Source of the DNA: a virus
Taxonomy: Duplodnaviria; Heunggongvirae; Uroviricota; Caudoviricetes
Strand: one strand, 5' to 3'
IMG/VR virus record: IMGVR_UViG_2663763286_000016
Span: 1-11,101 of that record
DNA length: 11,101 bases
The notes beneath the pieces are model-generated. The model had not been told where the DNA came from. It did not search any database and worked only from the letters and a program-made list of their open reading frames with translations. Shown here piece after piece: positions 1,492 through 9,475 of the stretch; within the stretch, counting starts at the first letter, position 1; every line of letters starts with the position of its first letter. The position numbers were made by a program, and so were the translations under genes.

Positions 1492-1531
1492 ACTCACCAC
1501 CAAGGCTTTCCACGACCATAAGGGTGGTGAG
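1492..1531. promoter_or_regulatory. 9-bp perfect inverted repeat (CTCACCACC ... GGTGGTGAG, 22-bp spacer) just upstream of the Rha start
   Basis: Read directly from the sequence at 1492-1500 and 1523-1531. Function as operator or RNA hairpin is unknown. Confidence 0.3.
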
Positions 1532-1630
1532 ACGTACAGGGGTGGAAATACCGGTGACTACCGAAACCGGCCAGCCTTTCGGCTGCCCTGCACGCCCCAC
1601 CATAATCTGAATGTGGCTGTGCATTACGCA

Positions 1631-1655
1631 TAAAAAAACCGCATGAGCGCGGTTA
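1631..1655 (-). terminator. Rho-independent terminator for leftward transcription
   Basis: On the minus strand: AACCGC-GCTCAT-GCGGTT hairpin (5-6 bp GC-rich stem) followed by a run of seven T (plus-strand A run 1632-1638). Lies between the pL-like operon and the Rha gene. Confidence 0.6.
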
Positions 1656-2297
1656 TGCGCAGTAGTCATCATCGGGTTTCCACGCCCGGCACCCGCTTTA
1701 TGAGGTGCAGGTGCACTATAATTCCACCCGTTCTGGTTTTCAATAGCTACATTCAACATTTTCTCTTACCCTTCATCACCGAAGTGAACTTTGTTGATGC
1801 AGTGCCTGGTGCCTCCAGGTGACGTTAACCAGTTAACAATTAACGCCGGATACAGAGAATCCACCCATAACACTGTTTTTGGTTTTAACTGTTCCGCGTG
1901 CGCTGAGCCGCATTCACCGCATCACAAAATTCACTTTAAAAAGGGCGGACATCAGTTCATGGGCAAACAGATGCCGCCAAACGTCACCAGAAAATTGATA
2001 ACAGAGGGCGTTGCAGCGGGGTTGTCACTTAAGCGTATGGTCAACCTGACAACCCGGTGTCCTCAACGGGGAAGGAATAACCCCGCCATACTTACCGCCG
2101 CGCCATTTCGCGGAGTGCCACAACCGGAAGCGCACGGTCGACGAAAATTTAACGACAGGCTATCTATGAACCAGCTACCTCGCCGTGCGCTTTCGCGTTA
2201 TGGTCTGACTTTTCAGGGAAATATCCTTTCAGTAAACTGTCAGTGCCGGATGCTTACCCGTGTCCGGCGCACGCACTCTACCTCACCCGTGAATAAA

Positions 2298-2967: not shown

Positions 2968-3004
2968 AAAAAGAGTGAGGGAATCTAAGTAACTGAAAGG
3001 AGTG

Positions 3005-3412
3005 TTATTTTATTGATTTGTTTTTACGTGCTTTAAGCATTTCTTCGAAGAGTTTATTGAAATTCTCTACTCTTGCGCGCATTTCAGACAGTAAGGCTTC
3101 CTGCTCGGAGGAGGGAAGAGCATCGAATAATTCGATCAATTCTTTGTGGCTGGGAGTTAACTCGGTTTCCACATGAAGTTCTTGTGCTGGCACTGGTGCC
3201 TTGTCTTCGTCACCAAACATTAGCCATGTAGGCGAGCACTTCAGCGCATCAGCTAAAGCAAATAACCGCTTCCCGACCGGTTGGGTTTCGTCTCTTTCCC
3301 ATTGTGAAATTGTGACGTGAGCTACCCCAGCGAGGCGTGCAGCTTCTCGTTGTGTTAGGCGTAATTCTTTTCGTCGTGCCAGAACTCGCTGGCCTAGGGT
3401 TCTTGTATCCAT
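3005..3412 (-). CDS. Phage repressor, XRE-family helix-turn-helix, 135 aa, no S24 peptidase domain
   Basis: N-terminus LGQRVLARRKELRLTQREAARLAGVAHVTISQWERDETQP is a classic Cro/CI-type HTH. It is divergent from the cro-like gene. No Shine-Dalgarno before the ATG at 3412 and a TAGAAT -10 about 9 nt upstream suggest a near-leaderless transcript, as for lambda cI from pRM. Confidence 0.8.
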   Translation of the reverse strand: MDTRTLGQRVLARRKELRLTQREAARLAGVAHVTISQWERDETQPVGKRLFALADALKCSPTWLMFGDEDKAPVPAQELHVETELTPSHKELIELFDALPSSEQEALLSEMRARVENFNKLFEEMLKARKNKSIK

Positions 3413-3414
3413 AG

Positions 3415-3478
3415 TTAGGTAATTCTAATTTTTCTTGACTTAGGTATCCCGCGCACATTACCGTTAGGAATATCTAAC
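3415..3478. promoter_or_regulatory. OR-like region: two TTAG-N6-CTAA palindromes plus candidate divergent promoters
   Basis: TTAGGTAATTCTAA at 3415-3428 and GTTAGGAATATCTAAC at 3463-3478. Minus-strand TAGAAT -10 (plus 3427..3422) overlaps the first palindrome. Plus-strand TTGACT at 3435-3440 is a candidate -35; its -10 was not convincingly resolved. Confidence 0.45.
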
Positions 3479-3492
3479 AAGAGGGGGCTTTG

Positions 3493-3720
3493 ATGCTTAA
3501 AGTTGACGCAATTACTTTTTTTGGCAGCAAAACAAAACTTGCCAATGCCGCAGGAGTGAAACTGGCAAGTGTTGCTGCATGGGGGGAACTGGTTCCTGAA
3601 GGTCGCGCGATGCGCCTGCAAGAGGCATCCGGCGGGGAACTTCAGTACGACCCCAAAGTTTATGACGAATATCGTAAGGCAAAGCGGGCGGGGCGGTTGA
3701 ACAATGAAAATCACCCCTGA
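3493..3720 (+). CDS. Cro-like DNA-binding protein (YdaS-like), 75 aa
   Basis: ATG at 3493 with GAGGGGG 5 nt upstream (the track start at 3490 is TTG). Sequence LKVDAITFFGSKTKLANAAGVKLASVAAWGELVPEGRAMRLQEASGGEL fits the YdaS/Cro pattern as remembered. Position divergent from the repressor. Confidence 0.75.
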   Translation: MLKVDAITFFGSKTKLANAAGVKLASVAAWGELVPEGRAMRLQEASGGELQYDPKVYDEYRKAKRAGRLNNENHP

Positions 3721-4225
3721 ACAGGTTTGTGAGGCTCTGGATGCCTGGGTATGCCGACCAGGAATGACACAGGAGCAGGCGACGATATTAATCACGGAAG
3801 CATTCTGGGCTCTGAAAGAACGCCCGAACATCGATGTTCAACGCGTCACGTTTAATGATGGCGAGGTTGATCAACGGGCGTTGGGCGTTAACCGGGTGAA
3901 GATATTCGAACGCTGGAAAGCTATCGACACCAGGGATAAGCGGGAAAAATTCACGGCGCTGATTCCGGCAATTATGGAGGCTATCCGGATCAGCGATTTC
4001 AGGTTGTATTGTGAAATTACTGACGGAAAAAGCATTACGTACATGATCGCCGGGTTAAACAAAGAATATGGTGATGTGGTGGAGTCCGGGCTGCTTTTTG
4101 CGGATCCATCTGTTGTGGAACGTGAGACTGACGAGCTTATAGAAAAAGCTATTGCTTTCAAGCATGCGTATCGTCAGCAATACCAACAAAAAGCTGGATG
4201 GAATTATGAGCCTTCTTTTTGCTGA
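3704..4225 (+). CDS. YdaT-like / cII-position early regulator, 173 aa
   Basis: ORF track 3704..4225, overlapping the cro-like stop. Central ALIPAIMEAI region resembles YdaT-family proteins of the Rac prophage (recollection, moderate certainty). Confidence 0.65.
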   Translation: MKITPEQVCEALDAWVCRPGMTQEQATILITEAFWALKERPNIDVQRVTFNDGEVDQRALGVNRVKIFERWKAIDTRDKREKFTALIPAIMEAIRISDFRLYCEITDGKSITYMIAGLNKEYGDVVESGLLFADPSVVERETDELIEKAIAFKHAYRQQYQQKAGWNYEPSFC

Positions 4226-5045
4226 ACGCCCACTGGTTATAAACACACAGCTTGCGATGAAGATTGGCTTAAATGAAGCCATTGTGTTGCAGCAGTTGCA
4301 TTACTGGTTGAGAGATACCAGTTCCGGTATAGAATGTGACGGGGTTCGCTGGATTTATAACACAACAGAACAATGGCTGGAACAGTTCCCGTTCTGGTCA
4401 GAGTCAACGTTAAAACGCGCATTTGCAAGTCTGAAAACGCTGGGGCTTTTGCGTTGCGAAAAGCTCAACAAATCAAAGCGTGATATGACTAATTTTTACA
4501 CGATTAATTACGAGAGTGAGCTTTTAGATGGTGGCAAAGTGAGCGAATCCATCAGGTCAAAATGCGCCGCTCCATCAGGTCAAAATGACACGATGGAAGA
4601 GGTCAAAATGGCACGCTCCATTGGTTCAAAACGACCCAATGTCATCGGGTCAAAATGGCCTGATGATCTTACAGAGAATACAACAGAGATTACTACAGAG
4701 AATAAAAACACTTCTCGTCCGGAAGCTTCGCAACCGGACCCGCAGACGGCTGAACAGGATTTTTTAACCCGACACCCTGACGCGGTTGTGTTCAGTGCGA
4801 AAAAACGCCAGTGGGGAAGTCAGGAAGATTTGGCGTGCGCACAGTGGATCTGGGGACGAATCGTGAGTCTTTACGAGCAGGCTGCCAGCGATGATGGCGA
4901 GATCACGCGACCGAAAGAACCAAACTGGACCGCATGGGCCAATGACGTGCGCACAATGCGGATGCTGGATGGCAGAAGCCACAGACAAATTTGCGAAATG
5001 TTTGGTCGGGTACAGCGAGATCCATTCTGGGTAAAAACATCATGA
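4206..5045 (+). CDS. Replication initiation protein, lambda O-like, with the origin iterons inside the gene
   Basis: N-terminal winged-helix-like region (EAIVLQQLHYWLRDTSSGIECDGVRWIYNTTEQWLEQFPFWSESTLKRAFASLKTLGLL), then a linker that encodes the iteron array. Start uncertain: ATG at 4206 (MSLLF...) is preferred over the track start at 4152 to limit overlap with the upstream gene. Confidence 0.65.
   Translation: MSLLFAERPLVINTQLAMKIGLNEAIVLQQLHYWLRDTSSGIECDGVRWIYNTTEQWLEQFPFWSESTLKRAFASLKTLGLLRCEKLNKSKRDMTNFYTINYESELLDGGKVSESIRSKCAAPSGQNDTMEEVKMARSIGSKRPNVIGSKWPDDLTENTTEITTENKNTSRPEASQPDPQTAEQDFLTRHPDAVVFSAKKRQWGSQEDLACAQWIWGRIVSLYEQAASDDGEITRPKEPNWTAWANDVRTMRMLDGRSHRQICEMFGRVQRDPFWVKTS
4548..4657. 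repeat. Iteron array (about five direct repeats with core GGTCAAAATG, 22-25 bp spacing): probable replication origin
   Basis: Cores at 4555-4564, 4578-4587, 4601-4610, 4623-4633 (degenerate GGTTCAAAACG) and 4648-4657. The 17-mer TCCATCAGGTCAAAATG occurs identically at 4548 and 4571. Followed by an A/T-rich stretch with two TACAGAGAATA repeats (4670-4704). Confidence 0.7.
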
Positions 5046-5986: not shown

Positions 5987-7018
5987 ATGTCTATTAATCC
6001 TAAACTTAAGCGTATCGCGCGACGCTATCCAGCGTTATTCCAATATGAGTCCCCCTATATGGCAAGAAAATTAATAATATTCGGCAACGGTCTCGGTATG
6101 GCTTTAGATCCTGCTCACTTCTCCTTAGACAGAGCGTTGGAAGAAATTTGGCATCGCCCCAATTTTTTAAAAGATATCCACAAGCAACTTATCGAGCGTT
6201 GTCTTCAGCGGCAAGGTCCACCAGAAGGAGAACATGAGTTGGATACCCTTCACCAGGCTGTCACATATTGTAAAGCTCTTGCTCAAATTGGAGAGGGGAA
6301 CGTGCATTGGCTTACTGACGATGGACTAAACTTCCCCAAAATTACCGCCACTTATATTCACAAAGTTGCAACCAGGTTGCATAATTACGATAAAGGTTTG
6401 CCACAAAGATTCGAAAATGCGCTTGTGGAGTTTGTAAAGAACACACACTCACATATCGCGACATTAAACTATGACAAATTATTATACAATTCATTCATAG
6501 ATAATGATATATTCAACGGGTATGATGGGGTTTTAGTTGATGGGATGCTAAGCCACGGATTTTCCTCTGCAGCGCTCGAACGGAAATACAATCGTAGGTT
6601 TGGTTATTATTTGCACTTGCATGGTTCACCACTATTTATTAATCAGCATGAAAATGTTTTAAAACTTTCACGCTCACAACTTACTCTTGACATAGATGAA
6701 CCTAGTGAGCATATAGTGTTAACTCATATAAAAAGAAAACCGTCAGTTATAGCAGCATCTAATGTTCTTTCTACGTACTGGGATTATTTGCAGTTTGCAT
6801 TATTTGAATCAGAAGAAATAATATTGTTTGGTTACTCTGGTCTCGATATTCACCTTAACCTGCTTATTCGACCTTACCTAACCTCTAAGCCTTTAAGAGT
6901 AATTGAGTGGAGCGGTGCTGGTGAACAAAACGCTCGTGAGATATATTGGAAAAACCAGTTGAGACGGGAAGTTACTGTAATTAGGTTGGATAACATCACT
7001 GATTTTATTGATTGGTAG
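5987..7018 (+). CDS. SIR2-like protein (SIR2_2 / defence-type sirtuin fold), 343 aa; candidate NAD-consuming defence effector
   Basis: Glycine-rich N-terminal motif LIIFGNGLGMAL, TLNYD motif (residues 159-163), HLHGS (210-214) and a C-terminal LFGYSGLD motif, matching the spacing and residues of SIR2_2-family domains as in ThsA/DSR proteins (from memory). The gene looks markedly AT-rich. Start uncertain: 5987 or the in-frame ATG at 6059. Confidence 0.65.
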   Translation: MSINPKLKRIARRYPALFQYESPYMARKLIIFGNGLGMALDPAHFSLDRALEEIWHRPNFLKDIHKQLIERCLQRQGPPEGEHELDTLHQAVTYCKALAQIGEGNVHWLTDDGLNFPKITATYIHKVATRLHNYDKGLPQRFENALVEFVKNTHSHIATLNYDKLLYNSFIDNDIFNGYDGVLVDGMLSHGFSSAALERKYNRRFGYYLHLHGSPLFINQHENVLKLSRSQLTLDIDEPSEHIVLTHIKRKPSVIAASNVLSTYWDYLQFALFESEEIILFGYSGLDIHLNLLIRPYLTSKPLRVIEWSGAGEQNAREIYWKNQLRREVTVIRLDNITDFIDW

Positions 7019-7178: not shown

Positions 7179-7279
7179 TTTTATATTGGCGAGGTGACGG
7201 GAGTTAAGTAGAATTGCTGCGGGTGCTTGAGGCTATCTGCCTCAGGCATGAACACCAAAAGGCAGATAGAGAAAAGCCC

Positions 7280-7342
7280 CAGTTAACATTACGCGTCCTG
7301 CAAGACGCTTAACATTAATCTGAGGCCATATCTATGCGACAC
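7280..7342 (-). ncRNA. Putative Sok-like antisense RNA (hypothetical; extent approximate)
   Basis: Candidate minus-strand promoter: TTGACC (plus 7376..7371), 16-bp spacer, GCTAAT (plus 7354..7349). This would start an antisense transcript covering the start of the short leader ORF, as in hok/sok loci. No clear terminator was identified. Confidence 0.2.
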
Positions 7343-7393
7343 ATAGAGATTAGCCTCTTACGGACCAAAAGGTCAAGGAGAAGCAGGCTATGA
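7334..7393 (+). CDS. Short leader ORF (19 aa) coupled to hok; mok-like by position
   Basis: ATG at 7334 sits inside a hairpin (TCTATG cgaca CATAGA). The TGA at 7391-7393 overlaps the hok ATG at 7390-7392. Confidence 0.3.
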   Translation: MRHIEISLLRTKRSRRSRL

Positions 7394-7545
7394 AGCAGCA
7401 AAAGGCGATGTTAATCGCCCTGATCGTCATCTGTTTAACCGTCATAGTGACGGCACTGGTAACGAGGAAAGACCTCTGCGAGGTACGAATCCGAACCGGC
7501 CAGACGGAGGTCGCTGTCTTCACAGCTTACGAACCTGAGGAGTAA
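7390..7545 (+). CDS. hokD: Hok/Gef-family type I toxin, 51 aa (matches HokD/RelF as remembered)
   Basis: Hand translation MKQQKAMLIALIVICLTVIVTALVTRKDLCEVRIRTGQTEVAVFTAYEPEE. AAGGAG 9 nt upstream. Upstream leader is rich in long-range complementary segments. Confidence 0.88.
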   Translation: MKQQKAMLIALIVICLTVIVTALVTRKDLCEVRIRTGQTEVAVFTAYEPEE

Positions 7546-7614: not shown

Positions 7615-7635
7615 ACCCGCTTCGGCGGGTTTTTG
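7615..7635 (+). terminator. Rho-independent terminator after hok
   Basis: CCCGC-TTCG-GCGGG hairpin followed by TTTTT. The identical 20-mer recurs at 9449. Confidence 0.7.
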
Positions 7636-7645
7636 CATTGTCTGG

Positions 7646-7674
7646 TTGACAAAAATAGAAAAATGCGAAAATAT
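7646..7674 (+). promoter_or_regulatory. Candidate promoter for the 216-aa / HTH-ImmA module
   Basis: Perfect -35 TTGACA at 7646-7651; the -10 is imperfect (AAATAT at 17 bp or TATGTG at 20 bp). Sits immediately after the first terminator copy. Confidence 0.35.
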
Positions 7675-7709
7675 GTGGTTTACGAATTCTAAAAAAAGCG
7701 AAACTTGAA

Positions 7710-8360
7710 ATGAATGAAAATCAGTTAGCTCCTTGTTGGGAATTTCAACCTTATCTTGCTGAAAACTATGTTCGCCACTTGTTGGCGGAGATCGCTAACG
7801 TACTTGAGCAGCTGTACTATCATAAGCACGCATTAGACAGCAACTGGTCTGAAGGTGTAAGGGCTTATGATTGGGTCAGAAATCATCTTATTCAAAATGA
7901 AGATGCAATTCCTGGCCTTGAGATGATTTCCAAGGGGTTGGACTATGTAGTTGCTTTAAATAAAGTTCCGCTACAATTTACCAAAGATTGCATTAATAAC
8001 CCCAAAAAGAAACATCGTCTGCGTCGAAATAAAGTAGAGTATGAGCAGCTCTCATTGTTTGGTGATGTTGAGGCTGAGCAAGATATTACATGGCGAGTCA
8101 TAGCTGAGCCTTTTTTATCCGAAGAGGGCGATGGTGAATTAGAGTCCACACTGCCTCGTTGGGAGGTAGCTCTTGTTGGATTTAATACTTATGGTGCTCA
8201 GATTAGTATAGTTTCTCATCAATCTACAGCATCGATGCCGCTTATGCCTCTTGATTATAACACACTCCCTGACGAAGCGGAGATTAATAAGGTGCCTCTT
8301 CGTCGGCGTACGAAGGATAAAGATTTGGATGTGAGCAGTGATGGAACATCAGGTGAATAA
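7710..8360 (+). CDS. Hypothetical protein, 216 aa, first gene of a two-gene module; contains a QLSLF pentapeptide
   Basis: ORF track 7710..8360. No family recognised. Residues 113-117 are QLSLF, flanked by a basic run (NPKKKHRLRRNK) and an acidic run. The 3' end overlaps the start of the next gene. Confidence 0.65.
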   Translation: MNENQLAPCWEFQPYLAENYVRHLLAEIANVLEQLYYHKHALDSNWSEGVRAYDWVRNHLIQNEDAIPGLEMISKGLDYVVALNKVPLQFTKDCINNPKKKHRLRRNKVEYEQLSLFGDVEAEQDITWRVIAEPFLSEEGDGELESTLPRWEVALVGFNTYGAQISIVSHQSTASMPLMPLDYNTLPDEAEINKVPLRRRTKDKDLDVSSDGTSGE

Positions 8361-9444
8361 CTTCACTGAGTATCGGGGTGATAAGCTCAAACTAGCGAGA
8401 ATGGCTGTTGGGCTTTCTTGTGAAGAGTTAGCCGAAAAAATTGGCAAGACAAAGCAATTCGTTAGCAAACTGGAGAAGGGGTGCAGGCCATCGGAGCAAT
8501 GTCTTGAGTTAATATCTTCAGCGCTTATGATTAAGTCCAGTTTTCTTTTTACTGAACGAAAATACGCTCTGGAAAGTGATGTCTGCCATTTTCGGAGTAA
8601 GAAGTCCAGGACTCAAACGCTGACTAATAGTGTATTGGCCAGGGCTGAGATTCTTAATATTATAATTTCTGCTGTTGAAGGTGAAATCGAATTTCCTGAC
8701 GTTAACATACCGGAGCACCCAGGGGCTGAATTACTTACTCCGAATGATATTGAGCGAGTGGCAGAAGATTGTCGCCGTGCCTGGAATTTAGGTCTTGGCC
8801 CTATATCATCAATGGTTAAATTGGCGGAGAGTTTAGGGGTAATCGTTGCGCATGTTACGGGAGTCGATGATCGTGTTGATGCTTTTACTGTTCACAATAA
8901 CAGGCCTGTTATCATCAGGAACAATGTTAAAAAAAGCATATGTAGATTTCGCTCTGATTTAGGTCATGAATTAGGGCATTTAGTAATGCATGAGGGCATA
9001 ACGACAGGTGATAAACTTACGGAATCACAAGCCGATCACTTTTCGAGCGCCTTATTAGTTCCCAGGTTATCTTTCATTAAAGAATTTCCACGAATACGAG
9101 GTAAGCAATTCGACTGGAATGCTCTGGTTGAATTTAAACTTAGATGGAAAATCAGCCTTAAAATGTGTATTTATCGAGCCAGCGCATTAGGCTTATTGAC
9201 CCAGGAACAGGCAAGAACTGGCTATATGCATCTTAATTCCAGAGGGTATACGAGAGTTGAACCTGGTGATGAACTTTTGCGCCCTGAAGAACCCGGCATG
9301 CTGGCCGAGGCGATTGAAATGCTGGATGATGCAACCTGGCTAAGAATTCTTATGAAAACTGGCTTGAGCCAAGATTTAATTCGTGAGTTGTTCTCCATCA
9401 ACAGACCTATTACAAATCCAAGAAATATTTTCCAGATTGTTTGA
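8341..9444 (+). CDS. Fusion of XRE-family HTH and ImmA/IrrE-type zinc metallopeptidase (COG2856-like), about 367 aa
   Basis: N-terminal HTH (LKLARMAVGLSCEELAEKIGKTKQFVSKLEKG) and an HEXXH motif (HELGH, residues 210-214, around nt 8965-8979). ATG at 8341; the track start at 8338 is GTG. Confidence 0.8.
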   Translation: MEHQVNNFTEYRGDKLKLARMAVGLSCEELAEKIGKTKQFVSKLEKGCRPSEQCLELISSALMIKSSFLFTERKYALESDVCHFRSKKSRTQTLTNSVLARAEILNIIISAVEGEIEFPDVNIPEHPGAELLTPNDIERVAEDCRRAWNLGLGPISSMVKLAESLGVIVAHVTGVDDRVDAFTVHNNRPVIIRNNVKKSICRFRSDLGHELGHLVMHEGITTGDKLTESQADHFSSALLVPRLSFIKEFPRIRGKQFDWNALVEFKLRWKISLKMCIYRASALGLLTQEQARTGYMHLNSRGYTRVEPGDELLRPEEPGMLAEAIEMLDDATWLRILMKTGLSQDLIRELFSINRPITNPRNIFQIV

Positions 9445-9448
9445 GTAT

Positions 9449-9475
9449 ACCCGCTTCGGCGGGTTTTTTGTTTTT
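9449..9475 (+). terminator. Rho-independent terminator after the HTH-ImmA gene
   Basis: The same CCCGC-TTCG-GCGGG hairpin, followed by TTTTTTGTTTTT. Starts 5 nt after the stop codon. Confidence 0.7.

What the first reader, a model, noticed from the sequence alone, without database searches (positions are those of the whole stretch)
7636..9475. Self-contained two-gene module: unknown 216-aa protein plus HTH-ImmA/IrrE metallopeptidase fusion
The two overlapping genes (7710..8360 and 8341..9444) sit between two copies of the same terminator hairpin, with a perfect TTGACA -35 straight after the first copy, so they form an independently transcribed unit inside the prophage late-early region. The second gene is a clear XRE-HTH plus HEXXH (HELGH) peptidase fusion of the ImmA/IrrE type. 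From established knowledge, such peptidases either cleave repressors in response to DNA damage (ImmA/ImmR, CapP/CapH) or act as the antitoxin or regulator half of two-gene toxin or defence modules. The first gene has no recognisable family and is the candidate effector. This is the most likely undescribed system in the window.
Basis: partly seen in the sequence, partly recalled or inferred. Interest (0 to 1): 0.8.

Follow-up and report, generated by a model that had tools for sequence, protein, structure and literature searches.

The report
RosmerTA toxin-antitoxin cassette in prophage
The two genes are a member of the already described RosmerTA (Vmi480/Vmi470-type) toxin-antitoxin and phage-defence family, carried as a small cassette in an E. 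coli prophage; the one new lead is that the toxin family carries a conserved motif of the kind that binds the DNA replication sliding clamp.

Summary
The two overlapping genes, the two identical terminator hairpins and the TTGACA are all at the stated coordinates.

The reading "undescribed system" does not hold.
- PADLOC models call the 216-aa protein RmrT (4.6e-25) and the 367-aa protein RmrA (6e-105). That makes the pair RosmerTA (Millman 2022).
- Both proteins are homologues of the validated Vibrio mimicus pair. The toxin matches Vmi480 at hhalign probability 97.9%. The antitoxin is 47% identical to the Vmi470-type partner.

The module is a 1,834-bp cassette inserted at the hokD terminator.
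- It is present in 237 of 5,426 complete E. coli genomes; 2,755 have the intact empty site.
- It carries its own conserved promoter and leader.
- The gene pair is kept in all eleven other toxin relatives whose loci were read.

The toxin model is confident (pLDDT 87) but has no solved structural neighbour.

New lead: the toxin family's hallmark motif, E-x-x-QLSLF, is the canonical beta-clamp-binding motif. It is present in 14 of 14 close and 28 of 55 distant relatives, against about 0.1-0.2 expected. It also sits in register in the family of the phage-tested RmrT. Together with published work on RipA and DnaN and on ClpX/ClpP dependence, this points to replication arrest through the sliding clamp. 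That step is inferred, not shown.

Verdict: a new member of a known kind, of modest interest.

The parts
7615..7634 (+). Left copy of the 20-nt direct repeat. It is the intrinsic terminator hairpin of hokD and marks the left edge of the cassette.
   Evidence: Exact repeat; terminator scan; RNA fold. The single copy in the empty site aligns here.
7635..9468 (+). The 1,834-bp RosmerTA cassette: promoter/leader, rmrT, rmrA and terminator. It is absent from the empty site.
   Evidence: A flank-to-flank construct matches contiguously in 2,755 of 5,426 E. coli genomes. Junction alignment A2. The full module is in 237 genomes.
7645..7709 (+). Conserved promoter and leader: an invariant GTTGAC (-35, TTGACA at 7646-7651), an invariant CGAA at 7666-7669, and GCGAAA at 7698-7703. 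It is the candidate RmrA operator region. The -10 is weak or uncertain.
   Evidence: Alignment A5 of the window with Enterobacter, Serratia and Xenorhabdus modules. Conservation begins at the -35 and nothing upstream is shared.
7710..8360 (+). rmrT, the 216-aa toxin of the Vmi480 family.
   Evidence: PADLOC RmrT 4.6e-25; PHROG 5786. Against Vmi480: BLASTP E 1e-15, hhalign probability 97.9%. AF2 pLDDT 87.1.
8046..8060 (+). Codons for Q113-L-S-L-F117, a canonical beta-clamp-binding motif, followed by an acidic linker.
   Evidence: Q113, L116, F117 and G118 are invariant, and L114 and S115 nearly invariant, in close relatives. The motif is at the same alignment position in 14/14, 28/55 and 6/9 members of three alignments, against 0.02-0.17 in shuffles. 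Motif definition from PMC11139829.
8341..9444 (+). rmrA, the 367-aa antitoxin: XRE HTH fused to an ImmA/IrrE (M78) Zn-peptidase.
   Evidence: PADLOC RmrA 6.2e-105; Pfam HTH_3 and Peptidase_M78. 47% identical to the Vmi470-type partner. 29% identical to the phage-tested RmrA.
8386..8526 (+). HTH_3 DNA-binding domain of RmrA (residues 16-62).
   Evidence: Pfam; PDB sequence hits to SinR and the 434 repressor.
8965..8979 (+). HEXXH zinc site of RmrA (H209, E210, H213). E228 is the likely third ligand.
   Evidence: Sequence; aligned with HELGH of the tested RmrA.
9449..9468 (+). Right copy of the 20-nt repeat and terminator of the cassette.
   Evidence: A similar hairpin ends the Enterobacter module.

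Best explanation
The module is a RosmerTA-type toxin-antitoxin / abortive-infection cassette of the Vmi480/Vmi470 subfamily. It rides as a moron in a lambdoid E. coli prophage.

How it most likely works:
1. The unit is transcribed from its own promoter in the lysogen. RmrA's HTH probably autoregulates it at the conserved leader.
2. RmrT (216 aa) is the toxin.
3. RmrA (HTH plus M78 Zn-peptidase) keeps RmrT harmless, probably with help from ClpXP.
4. When neutralisation fails, for example on infection by another phage or on loss of the element, free RmrT stops growth.
5. The proposed mode of toxicity is that RmrT inserts its conserved QLSLF motif into the hydrophobic cleft of the beta sliding clamp (DnaN). 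This would displace polymerases and arrest DNA replication.

Shown here: family membership of both proteins, conservation of the pair, the cassette structure, an intact peptidase site, and a conserved clamp-binding-type motif.

Shown by others on relatives: toxicity and rescue (Vmi480/470), phage defence (E. coli OLC-716 RosmerTA), a DnaN target and ClpX dependence (RipAB), and ClpP dependence (E. coli E101).

Inferred: DnaN as the target of this toxin, the role of proteolysis, the trigger, and defence by this particular module.

My confidence is about 0.85 that this is a RosmerTA/Vmi480-type TA with the toxin upstream. It is about 0.4 for the clamp-targeting step.
For: Family membership:
- PADLOC RmrT and RmrA hits.
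- P0253 is named VMD_06480, which is Vmi480. It matches the toxin at BLASTP E 1e-15 and hhalign probability 97.9%.
- The partner of a Vmi480-like gene is 47% identical to RmrA, E 3e-124.
- The tested RmrA is 29% identical, E 2e-35.

Conserved pair:
- An HTH plus M78 gene lies directly downstream in all eleven other toxin relatives whose loci were read.
- The same holds in an E. coli M8 homologue.

Cassette:
-.
- Conserved promoter and leader.
- A natural IS5 insertion disrupts rmrT while rmrA stays intact.

Clamp-binding motif:
- Statistics.
- The motif is in register in the family of the tested RmrT. The two toxin families are probably distant homologues (hhalign probability 64%, E 6.6e-5).

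Literature: PMC4671572, 10.1101/2022.05.11.491447, PMC12795458, 10.1101/2020.05.25.114553, 10.64898/2025.12.09.693261, PMC11139829.
Against: - Nothing was tested on this module: no toxicity, defence or DnaN-binding data exist for it.
- The phage-tested RmrT is only weakly related (hhalign probability 64%).
- RosmerTA toxins are heterogeneous. The Gordonia phage Kita RmrT depolarises membranes (PMC10440598).
- Only about half of the distant family members keep a strictly canonical motif (28 of 55).
- The motif lies at the end of a predicted helix (H108-115).
- A conserved Q-L-x-L-F could instead be a structural element, or a site recognised by RmrA or ClpX.
- The RipA, E101_02645 and SocB sequences could not be compared with this family.
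- The -10 element is weak.
Confidence: 0.75

Rival explanations
1. The module is mainly an addiction or stabilisation element for the prophage or cassette (post-segregational killing). It would have no real anti-phage role.
For: - Vmi480/470 was described only as a TA pair on a genomic island.
- rmrA-type genes are essential in Tn-seq without any phage present.
- The cassette sits beside another addiction module, hokD/sok.
Against: - A RosmerTA with a homologous RmrA protects against phages, as does the Kita system.
- Relatives sit among defence-type neighbours such as AAA_15/SMC_N, T5orf172 and methylase genes.
- The two roles are not exclusive.
Confidence: 0.25
2. RmrT is an enzyme, for example a nuclease with a restriction-endonuclease-like (PD-(D/E)xK) core, and kills by cutting nucleic acid. 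The QLSLF motif would be incidental or only a tether.
Against: - No D...(D/E)xK arrangement is conserved.
- There is no Pfam, NCBIfam or PDB sequence match.
Confidence: 0.1
3. The HTH-peptidase is an ImmA-like anti-repressor that controls induction of this prophage by cleaving its repressor. The 216-aa protein would be a cofactor or sensor.
For: The prophage repressor (3005-3412) has only an HTH_3 domain and no S24 self-cleavage domain. ImmA/IrrE peptidases do cleave HTH repressors.
Against: - The cassette is optional. 2,755 genomes have the same site without it.
- It lies 4 kb from the immunity region.
- It occurs at other positions in other prophages, and outside prophages.
- It scores far better with RmrA models (6e-105) than with capP (1.6e-14).
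Confidence: 0.05
4. The roles are reversed, as in PD-lambda-2: the HTH-peptidase is the toxic component and the upstream protein neutralises it.
For: In PD-lambda-2 the Xre-peptidase alone was toxic and the upstream protein rescued it (PMC9519451).
Against: - In the homologous Vmi480/470 pair the upstream gene is lethal and the peptidase gene rescues it.
- Delta-rmrA could not be made.
- A natural IS5 insertion disrupts rmrT and leaves rmrA intact.
- There is no HigB-like gene and no third gene here.
Confidence: 0.05

Closest known systems
Vmi480/Vmi470 toxin-antitoxin pair of Vibrio mimicus VM573 island MGIVmi1 (Luo et al. 2015, PMC4671572)
   Same: - Both proteins are homologous. The toxin shares 26% identity over 176 aa (hhalign probability 97.9%). 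The antitoxin is 47% identical to the partner of a near-identical Vmi480 copy.
- The gene order is the same, with the toxin first.
- The sizes are similar (198 and 362 aa against 216 and 367 aa).
- Both have their own promoter.
   Different: - The genes overlap by 20 nt here, instead of being separated by a 5-bp gap.
- This module is carried by a lambdoid prophage rather than an SXT-mobilised island.
- The toxin is strongly diverged.
- Vmi480 has the hexapeptide QISLEL where this protein has QLSLF.
RosmerTA of E. coli OLC-716 (Millman et al. 2022), the phage-tested system
   Same: - RmrA is homologous (29% identity over 300 aa, E 2e-35).
- The architecture is the same.
- PADLOC files both under RosmerTA.
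- Its toxin family has QLDLF as the consensus at the aligned position.
   Different: The toxins are at most distant homologues. hhalign gives probability 0.2% against the single sequence and 64% profile against profile.
RipAB (Spr1630/Spr1629) of Streptococcus pneumoniae (PMC12795458)
   Same: - It is a Rosmer-family TA.
- The antitoxin family is related (NCBIfam spr1629 family, 1.5e-45, below the cut-off).
- Its toxin acts on the hydrophobic pocket of DnaN, which is where a QLSLF motif would bind.
   Different: - It is not an equivalog (156 bits against a cut-off of 335).
- The organism is Gram-positive, and the readout is competence.
SocAB of Caulobacter crescentus (named from PMC12795458 and my own knowledge of Aakre et al. 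2013)
   Same: The proposed logic is alike: a toxin that blocks replication at the beta clamp and is held in check through ClpXP.
   Different: No sequence relation is claimed. SocA is a ClpXP adaptor, not an HTH-peptidase. The likeness is in function only.
ImmA/ImmR of ICEBs1 and CapP/CapH of CBASS
   Same: They share the M78 (ImmA/IrrE) peptidase fold paired with an XRE HTH.
   Different: In those systems the HTH repressor and the peptidase are separate proteins that control an element or a CBASS operon. Here they are fused and paired with a toxin.

Membership tests
RosmerTA (RmrT/RmrA) | The antitoxin RmrA has an XRE HTH plus a Zn-peptidase (M78, ImmA/IrrE) with HEXXH. | tested here: met
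   Pfam HTH_3 5e-7 and Peptidase_M78 6.5e-11. PADLOC RmrA 6.2e-105 over 11-350. HELGH at 209-213.
RosmerTA (RmrT/RmrA) | An adjacent co-oriented toxin gene matches an RmrT model. | tested here: met
   PADLOC RmrT PDLC03929, 4.6e-25, residues 7-209 on model positions 5-195 of 198. The genes overlap by 20 nt.
RosmerTA (RmrT/RmrA) | The gene pair is conserved across genomes. | tested here: met
   All eleven other toxin relatives whose loci were read have an HTH plus M78 gene directly downstream. So does an E. coli M8 homologue.
RosmerTA (RmrT/RmrA) | The toxin is toxic, the antitoxin neutralises it, and the antitoxin cannot be deleted. | not testable with these tools
   Known only for relatives. 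The one natural hint is the IS5 insertion in rmrT with rmrA intact.
RosmerTA (RmrT/RmrA) | The system protects against phages. | not testable with these tools
   Shown for E. coli OLC-716 and the Gordonia phage Kita systems only.
Vmi480/Vmi470 TA family | The toxin is homologous to Vmi480 (VMD_06480). | tested here: met
   P0253 is named 671076.VMD_06480. BLASTP E 1e-15. hhalign probability 97.9%, E 5e-13.
Vmi480/Vmi470 TA family | The antitoxin is homologous to Vmi470. | tested here: met
   The 362-aa protein lying 5 bp downstream of a Vmi480 copy that differs at 2 residues is 47% identical over 347 aa, E 3e-124. Vmi470 itself was not retrieved.
spr1629 (RipB) family repressor/antitoxin, NCBIfam NF052239 | The score reaches the curated equivalog cut-off. 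| tested here: not met
   155.9 bits against a cut-off of 335. It is a relative, not an equivalog.
ImmA/ImmR anti-repressor pair | There is a separate HTH repressor substrate gene next to the peptidase, and the pair controls the element's own switch. | tested here: not met
   The HTH is fused to the peptidase. The module is an optional cassette 4 kb from the immunity region.
CapP/CapH (CBASS regulators) | The pair is linked to a CBASS operon, and the best model match is capP/capH. | tested here: not met
   capP scores 1.6e-14 against RmrA at 6e-105. There are no CBASS genes in the window.
PD-lambda-2 | Three genes: a HigB-like protein, an Xre-peptidase and a P4-antitoxin-like protein. | tested here: not met
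   The cassette has two genes only. There is no HigB match in Pfam, PADLOC or NCBIfam.
Beta-clamp (DnaN) ligands | A canonical clamp-binding motif, Q-phi-x-[LM]-[FL] or Q-phi-x-[LM]-x-[FL]. | tested here: met
   QLSLF at 113-117. It is conserved at that position in 14 of 14 close and 28 of 55 distant relatives. Definition from PMC11139829.
Beta-clamp (DnaN) ligands | Physical binding to the clamp cleft. | not testable with these tools
   No complex prediction or experiment was possible.

The most novel reading that the evidence does not exclude
The core RmrT toxins of RosmerTA are sliding-clamp poisons. This covers the Vmi480 family, including this E. coli prophage toxin, and the family of the phage-tested E. 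coli OLC-716 toxin. A conserved internal QL[SD]LF-type motif would plug the DnaN cleft and arrest replication. RmrA together with ClpXP would keep the toxin off the clamp until infection.

If true, this would unify RosmerTA, RipAB and the ClpX/ClpP-essentiality phenotypes under one mechanism. It would also explain how the widely used counterselection marker vmi480 kills cells. I found no paper in the held library that reports this motif in RmrT toxins.
Probability: 0.4. Interest if true: 0.6.

Novelty: new member of a known kind. Interest (0 to 1): 0.35.

Why it matters
As a system it is ordinary. Current defence-finding tools already label it RosmerTA, and its toxin family was validated in 2015. 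Three points have some value.
- It shows cleanly how such a module travels. It is a promoter-to-terminator cassette dropped into the hokD terminator of lambdoid prophages, in about 4% of complete E. coli genomes.
- It ties the "hypothetical protein" WP_001004956.1 to Vmi480, a toxin used routinely as a counterselection marker whose mode of action is unknown.
- The conserved clamp-binding-type motif gives a specific and cheap hypothesis for how RosmerTA toxins kill, and for why ClpX or ClpP becomes essential in strains that carry them.

Tried and rejected
- Pfam and NCBIfam gave nothing for the toxin. A PDB sequence search with the family profile gave nothing.
- The first AF2 model, from 14 close sequences, was poor (pLDDT 61). 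The 55-sequence alignment fixed this (pLDDT 87).
- The search for related loci with the diverse alignment failed because no stretch was conserved enough. With P0034 it returned only Vibrio sonorensis.
- I tried to identify Rousset's E101 toxin (WP_001179380.1) among relatives. The E. coli M8 homologue carries other accessions, and cluster look-ups gave no match. Whether the E101 toxin belongs to this family stays untested.
- The RipA (Spr1630) sequence and Piotrowski 2009 were not obtainable.
- Neither DNA nor tblastn searches found the module in deposited phage genomes.
- No paper mentions the two RefSeq accessions.
- The single hexapeptide QLKLDL in the tested RmrT is not significant on its own (26% of shuffles). 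Only its conservation across that family counts.
- The 5-bp inverted repeat TTGTC/GACAA over the -35 was considered as an operator. I dropped it as too short to mean anything by itself.
Full report
**1. Observation**

The window is the early/nin region of a lambdoid (Rac-like) E. coli prophage. Its genes include:
- a Rha/Ash gene,
- an HTH_3 repressor,
- a P22_Cro/YdaS-like gene and a YdaT-like gene,
- a DUF977 gene,
- hokD/sok.

ORF 7710-8360 encodes 216 aa and ORF 8341-9444 encodes 367 aa. They overlap by 20 nt. RefSeq annotates them in E. coli 042 as a "hypothetical protein" (WP_001004956.1) and a "helix-turn-helix domain-containing protein" (WP_000401168.1).

The string ACCCGCTTCGGCGGGTTTTT occurs exactly twice, at 7615-7634 and 9449-9468, with none expected by chance. 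Both copies look like intrinsic terminators.

TTGACA lies at 7646-7651. The -10 is poor (AAATAT at 17 nt), and the scan did not call a promoter.

**2. A discrete cassette**

I joined the left flank (hokD to the end of the first repeat) directly to the right flank (after the second repeat). This construct matches in one piece in 2,755 of 5,426 complete E. coli genomes. The full module is present in 237 genomes at 99% identity or more.

The three-way alignment shows one terminator copy in the empty site, with both junctions exactly at the repeat. So 7635-9468 (1,834 bp) is an insertion at the hokD terminator.

Close relatives of the pair sit at other places in other lambdoid prophages:
- between Q and the holin gene in Serratia,
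- in the nin region in Xenorhabdus and Enterobacter.

Aligning the four upstream regions shows nothing shared until GTTGAC, the -35. From there the sequence is conserved down to the ATG, including an invariant CGAA (7666-7669) and GCGAAA (7698-7703). The unit therefore carries its own promoter and leader, which is probably the operator for the HTH of the second protein.

**3. What the proteins are**

The 367-aa protein has HTH_3 and Peptidase_M78 domains, with HELGH at residues 209-213.

PADLOC models identify both proteins: RmrA (6.2e-105, full length) and RmrT (PDLC03929, 4.6e-25, full length). RmrT and RmrA are the two genes of RosmerTA, which Millman et al. 2022 described as a toxin of unknown function plus a Zn-peptidase antitoxin. 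In that study delta-rmrA could not be made. The verified example comes from E. coli OLC-716. Its RmrA is 29% identical to ours over 300 aa (E 2e-35).

The toxin has no Pfam or NCBIfam family. It does belong to PHROG 5786.

A profile search of 1.84 billion representatives found 65 relatives of about 195-225 aa.

For eleven other toxin relatives, at 16-84% identity to the window protein, I read the locus. Each has an HTH plus M78 gene directly downstream, while the other neighbours differ. The same arrangement holds in an E. coli M8 homologue at a tRNA-Phe island.

**4. Link to an experimentally validated toxin**

A second profile search reached a Vibrio cluster. One member of that cluster is labelled 671076.VMD_06480. 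That is vmi480 of V. mimicus VM573.
- Vmi480 aligns with our toxin at BLASTP E 1e-15 (26% identity over 176 aa) and with the close-family profile at hhalign probability 97.9%.
- A copy differing from Vmi480 at two residues is followed after 5 bp by a 362-aa HTH plus M78 protein. This is exactly the published vmi480-vmi470 layout. That protein is 47% identical to our RmrA (E 3e-124).

Luo et al. showed that vmi480 alone is lethal in E. coli, that vmi470 rescues it, and that vmi470 cannot be deleted alone.

One natural observation fits these roles. In strain FDAARGOS_1249, IS5 interrupts rmrT while rmrA is intact.

**5. Mechanism**

With the 55-sequence alignment, AlphaFold gives a confident model (pLDDT 87.1, pTM 0.77). 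Its elements, in order:
- two N-terminal helices,
- a three-stranded sheet segment,
- helices at 101-104 and 108-115,
- three long strands.

The most conserved linear element of the family is E110-x-x-Q113-L-S-L-F117, followed by a variable acidic linker. QL(S/D)LF is the consensus clamp-binding motif of bacterial beta-clamp ligands. The current definition is Q-phi-x-[LM]-[FL] or Q-phi-x-[LM]-x-[FL]. Such motifs may lie in internal loops, and acidic residues after the motif favour binding (PMC11139829).

With that definition, the motif is at the aligned position in:
- 14 of 14 close relatives (shuffles give 0.08),
- 28 of 55 distant relatives (shuffles give 0.17).

Across the 55 distant relatives only one match lies elsewhere, in 10,532 residues. 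A looser pattern gives 40 of 55. Vmi480 has QISLEL.

I then collected eight plasmid homologues of the phage-tested OLC-716 RmrT. Each is followed by an XRE/ImmA gene. Their consensus at the tested protein's QLKLDL is QLDLF, and 6 of 9 sequences are canonical. Profile-profile comparison of the two toxin families gives probability 64% and E 6.6e-5 over 144 columns, with the motifs in register. The two families are therefore probably distant homologues that share the motif.

Independent published work fits this reading:
- The Rosmer-family toxin RipA of S. pneumoniae is suppressed by mutations in the hydrophobic pocket of DnaN. It interacts with DnaN and makes clpX essential. No motif is mentioned in that paper.
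- A prophage TA in E. coli E101 with the same architecture makes clpP essential.
- In Pectobacteriaceae, clpX is essential only in RosmerTA-bearing strains.

My best reading is that RmrT poisons the clamp and that RmrA, with ClpXP, prevents this until a trigger arrives. The target, the role of proteolysis and the trigger are all inferences for this module.

**6. Comparison and novelty**

Membership in RosmerTA and in the Vmi480/Vmi470 family is met on every feature that sequence can test.
- It is not an equivalog of spr1629 (156 bits against a cut-off of 335).
- It is not an ImmA/ImmR, CapP/CapH or PD-lambda-2 system.

The system is a new member of a known kind. The family is known as a toxin, but its mechanism is not. 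The clamp-motif lead was not found in the literature I could search.

**7. Verdict**

Interest is 0.35 as it stands. The clamp-poison reading has a probability of about 0.4 and would be worth about 0.6 if true.

Noticed in passing
window 5987-7018 (+): A 343-aa ORF just upstream of hokD has a SIR2_2 domain (Pfam 1e-5). It gives weak PADLOC hits to Aga_SIR2 and PDC-S21 (1e-5 to 4e-6) and has no PHROG or NCBIfam match. It may be a second defence cargo gene in the same variable region. E. coli 042 and strain 08-00022 carry other genes at this place.
   Followed up: partly
window 7221-7545 (+): A complete hokD/sok type I toxin-antitoxin locus: Rfam sok at 107.5 bits (7221-7392) and a Hok_Gef ORF at 7390-7545. 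The RosmerTA cassette is inserted exactly at its terminator.
   Followed up: yes
window 1520-1607 (-) and 1632-1708 (-): Rfam finds a C4 antisense RNA (79 bits) and an isrK Hfq-binding RNA (64 bits). Both lie inside the 5' part of the Rha/Ash-family ORF 905-1759. This looks like a P1/P7-type antisense-controlled antirepressor region.
   Followed up: no
window 3005-3412 (-): The prophage repressor candidate (135 aa) has only an HTH_3 domain and no S24 self-cleavage domain. It is followed by P22_Cro/YdaS-like and YdaT-like genes, so induction probably relies on an antirepressor.
   Followed up: no
L016 (E. coli FDAARGOS_1249) 809-2368: An IS5 element interrupts the 5' part of rmrT, leaving a 140-aa remnant, while rmrA is intact. 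This is a natural knockout of the presumed toxin.
   Followed up: partly
L014 (E. coli M8) 3001-4746: A second, diverged RmrT/RmrA pair of the same toxin family sits in an integrase-bearing island at tRNA-Phe. It shares about 73% DNA identity with a Dickeya/Leclercia-type pair and is found in 15 E. coli genomes.
   Followed up: partly
alignments A3 and A7 (window 7710-8360 against L022-L029): The Vmi480-type toxin family and the family of the phage-tested E. coli OLC-716 RmrT look like distant homologues (hhalign probability 64%, E 6.6e-5). The QLxLF motif and the following W-containing strand are in register.
   Followed up: partly
window 8311-8357 (RmrT residues about 197-216): The toxin family ends in a conserved basic patch (L-R-R-R-x-K) followed by an acidic tail. 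Given the reported ClpX/ClpP dependence of relatives, this could be a degradation or recognition signal.
   Followed up: no
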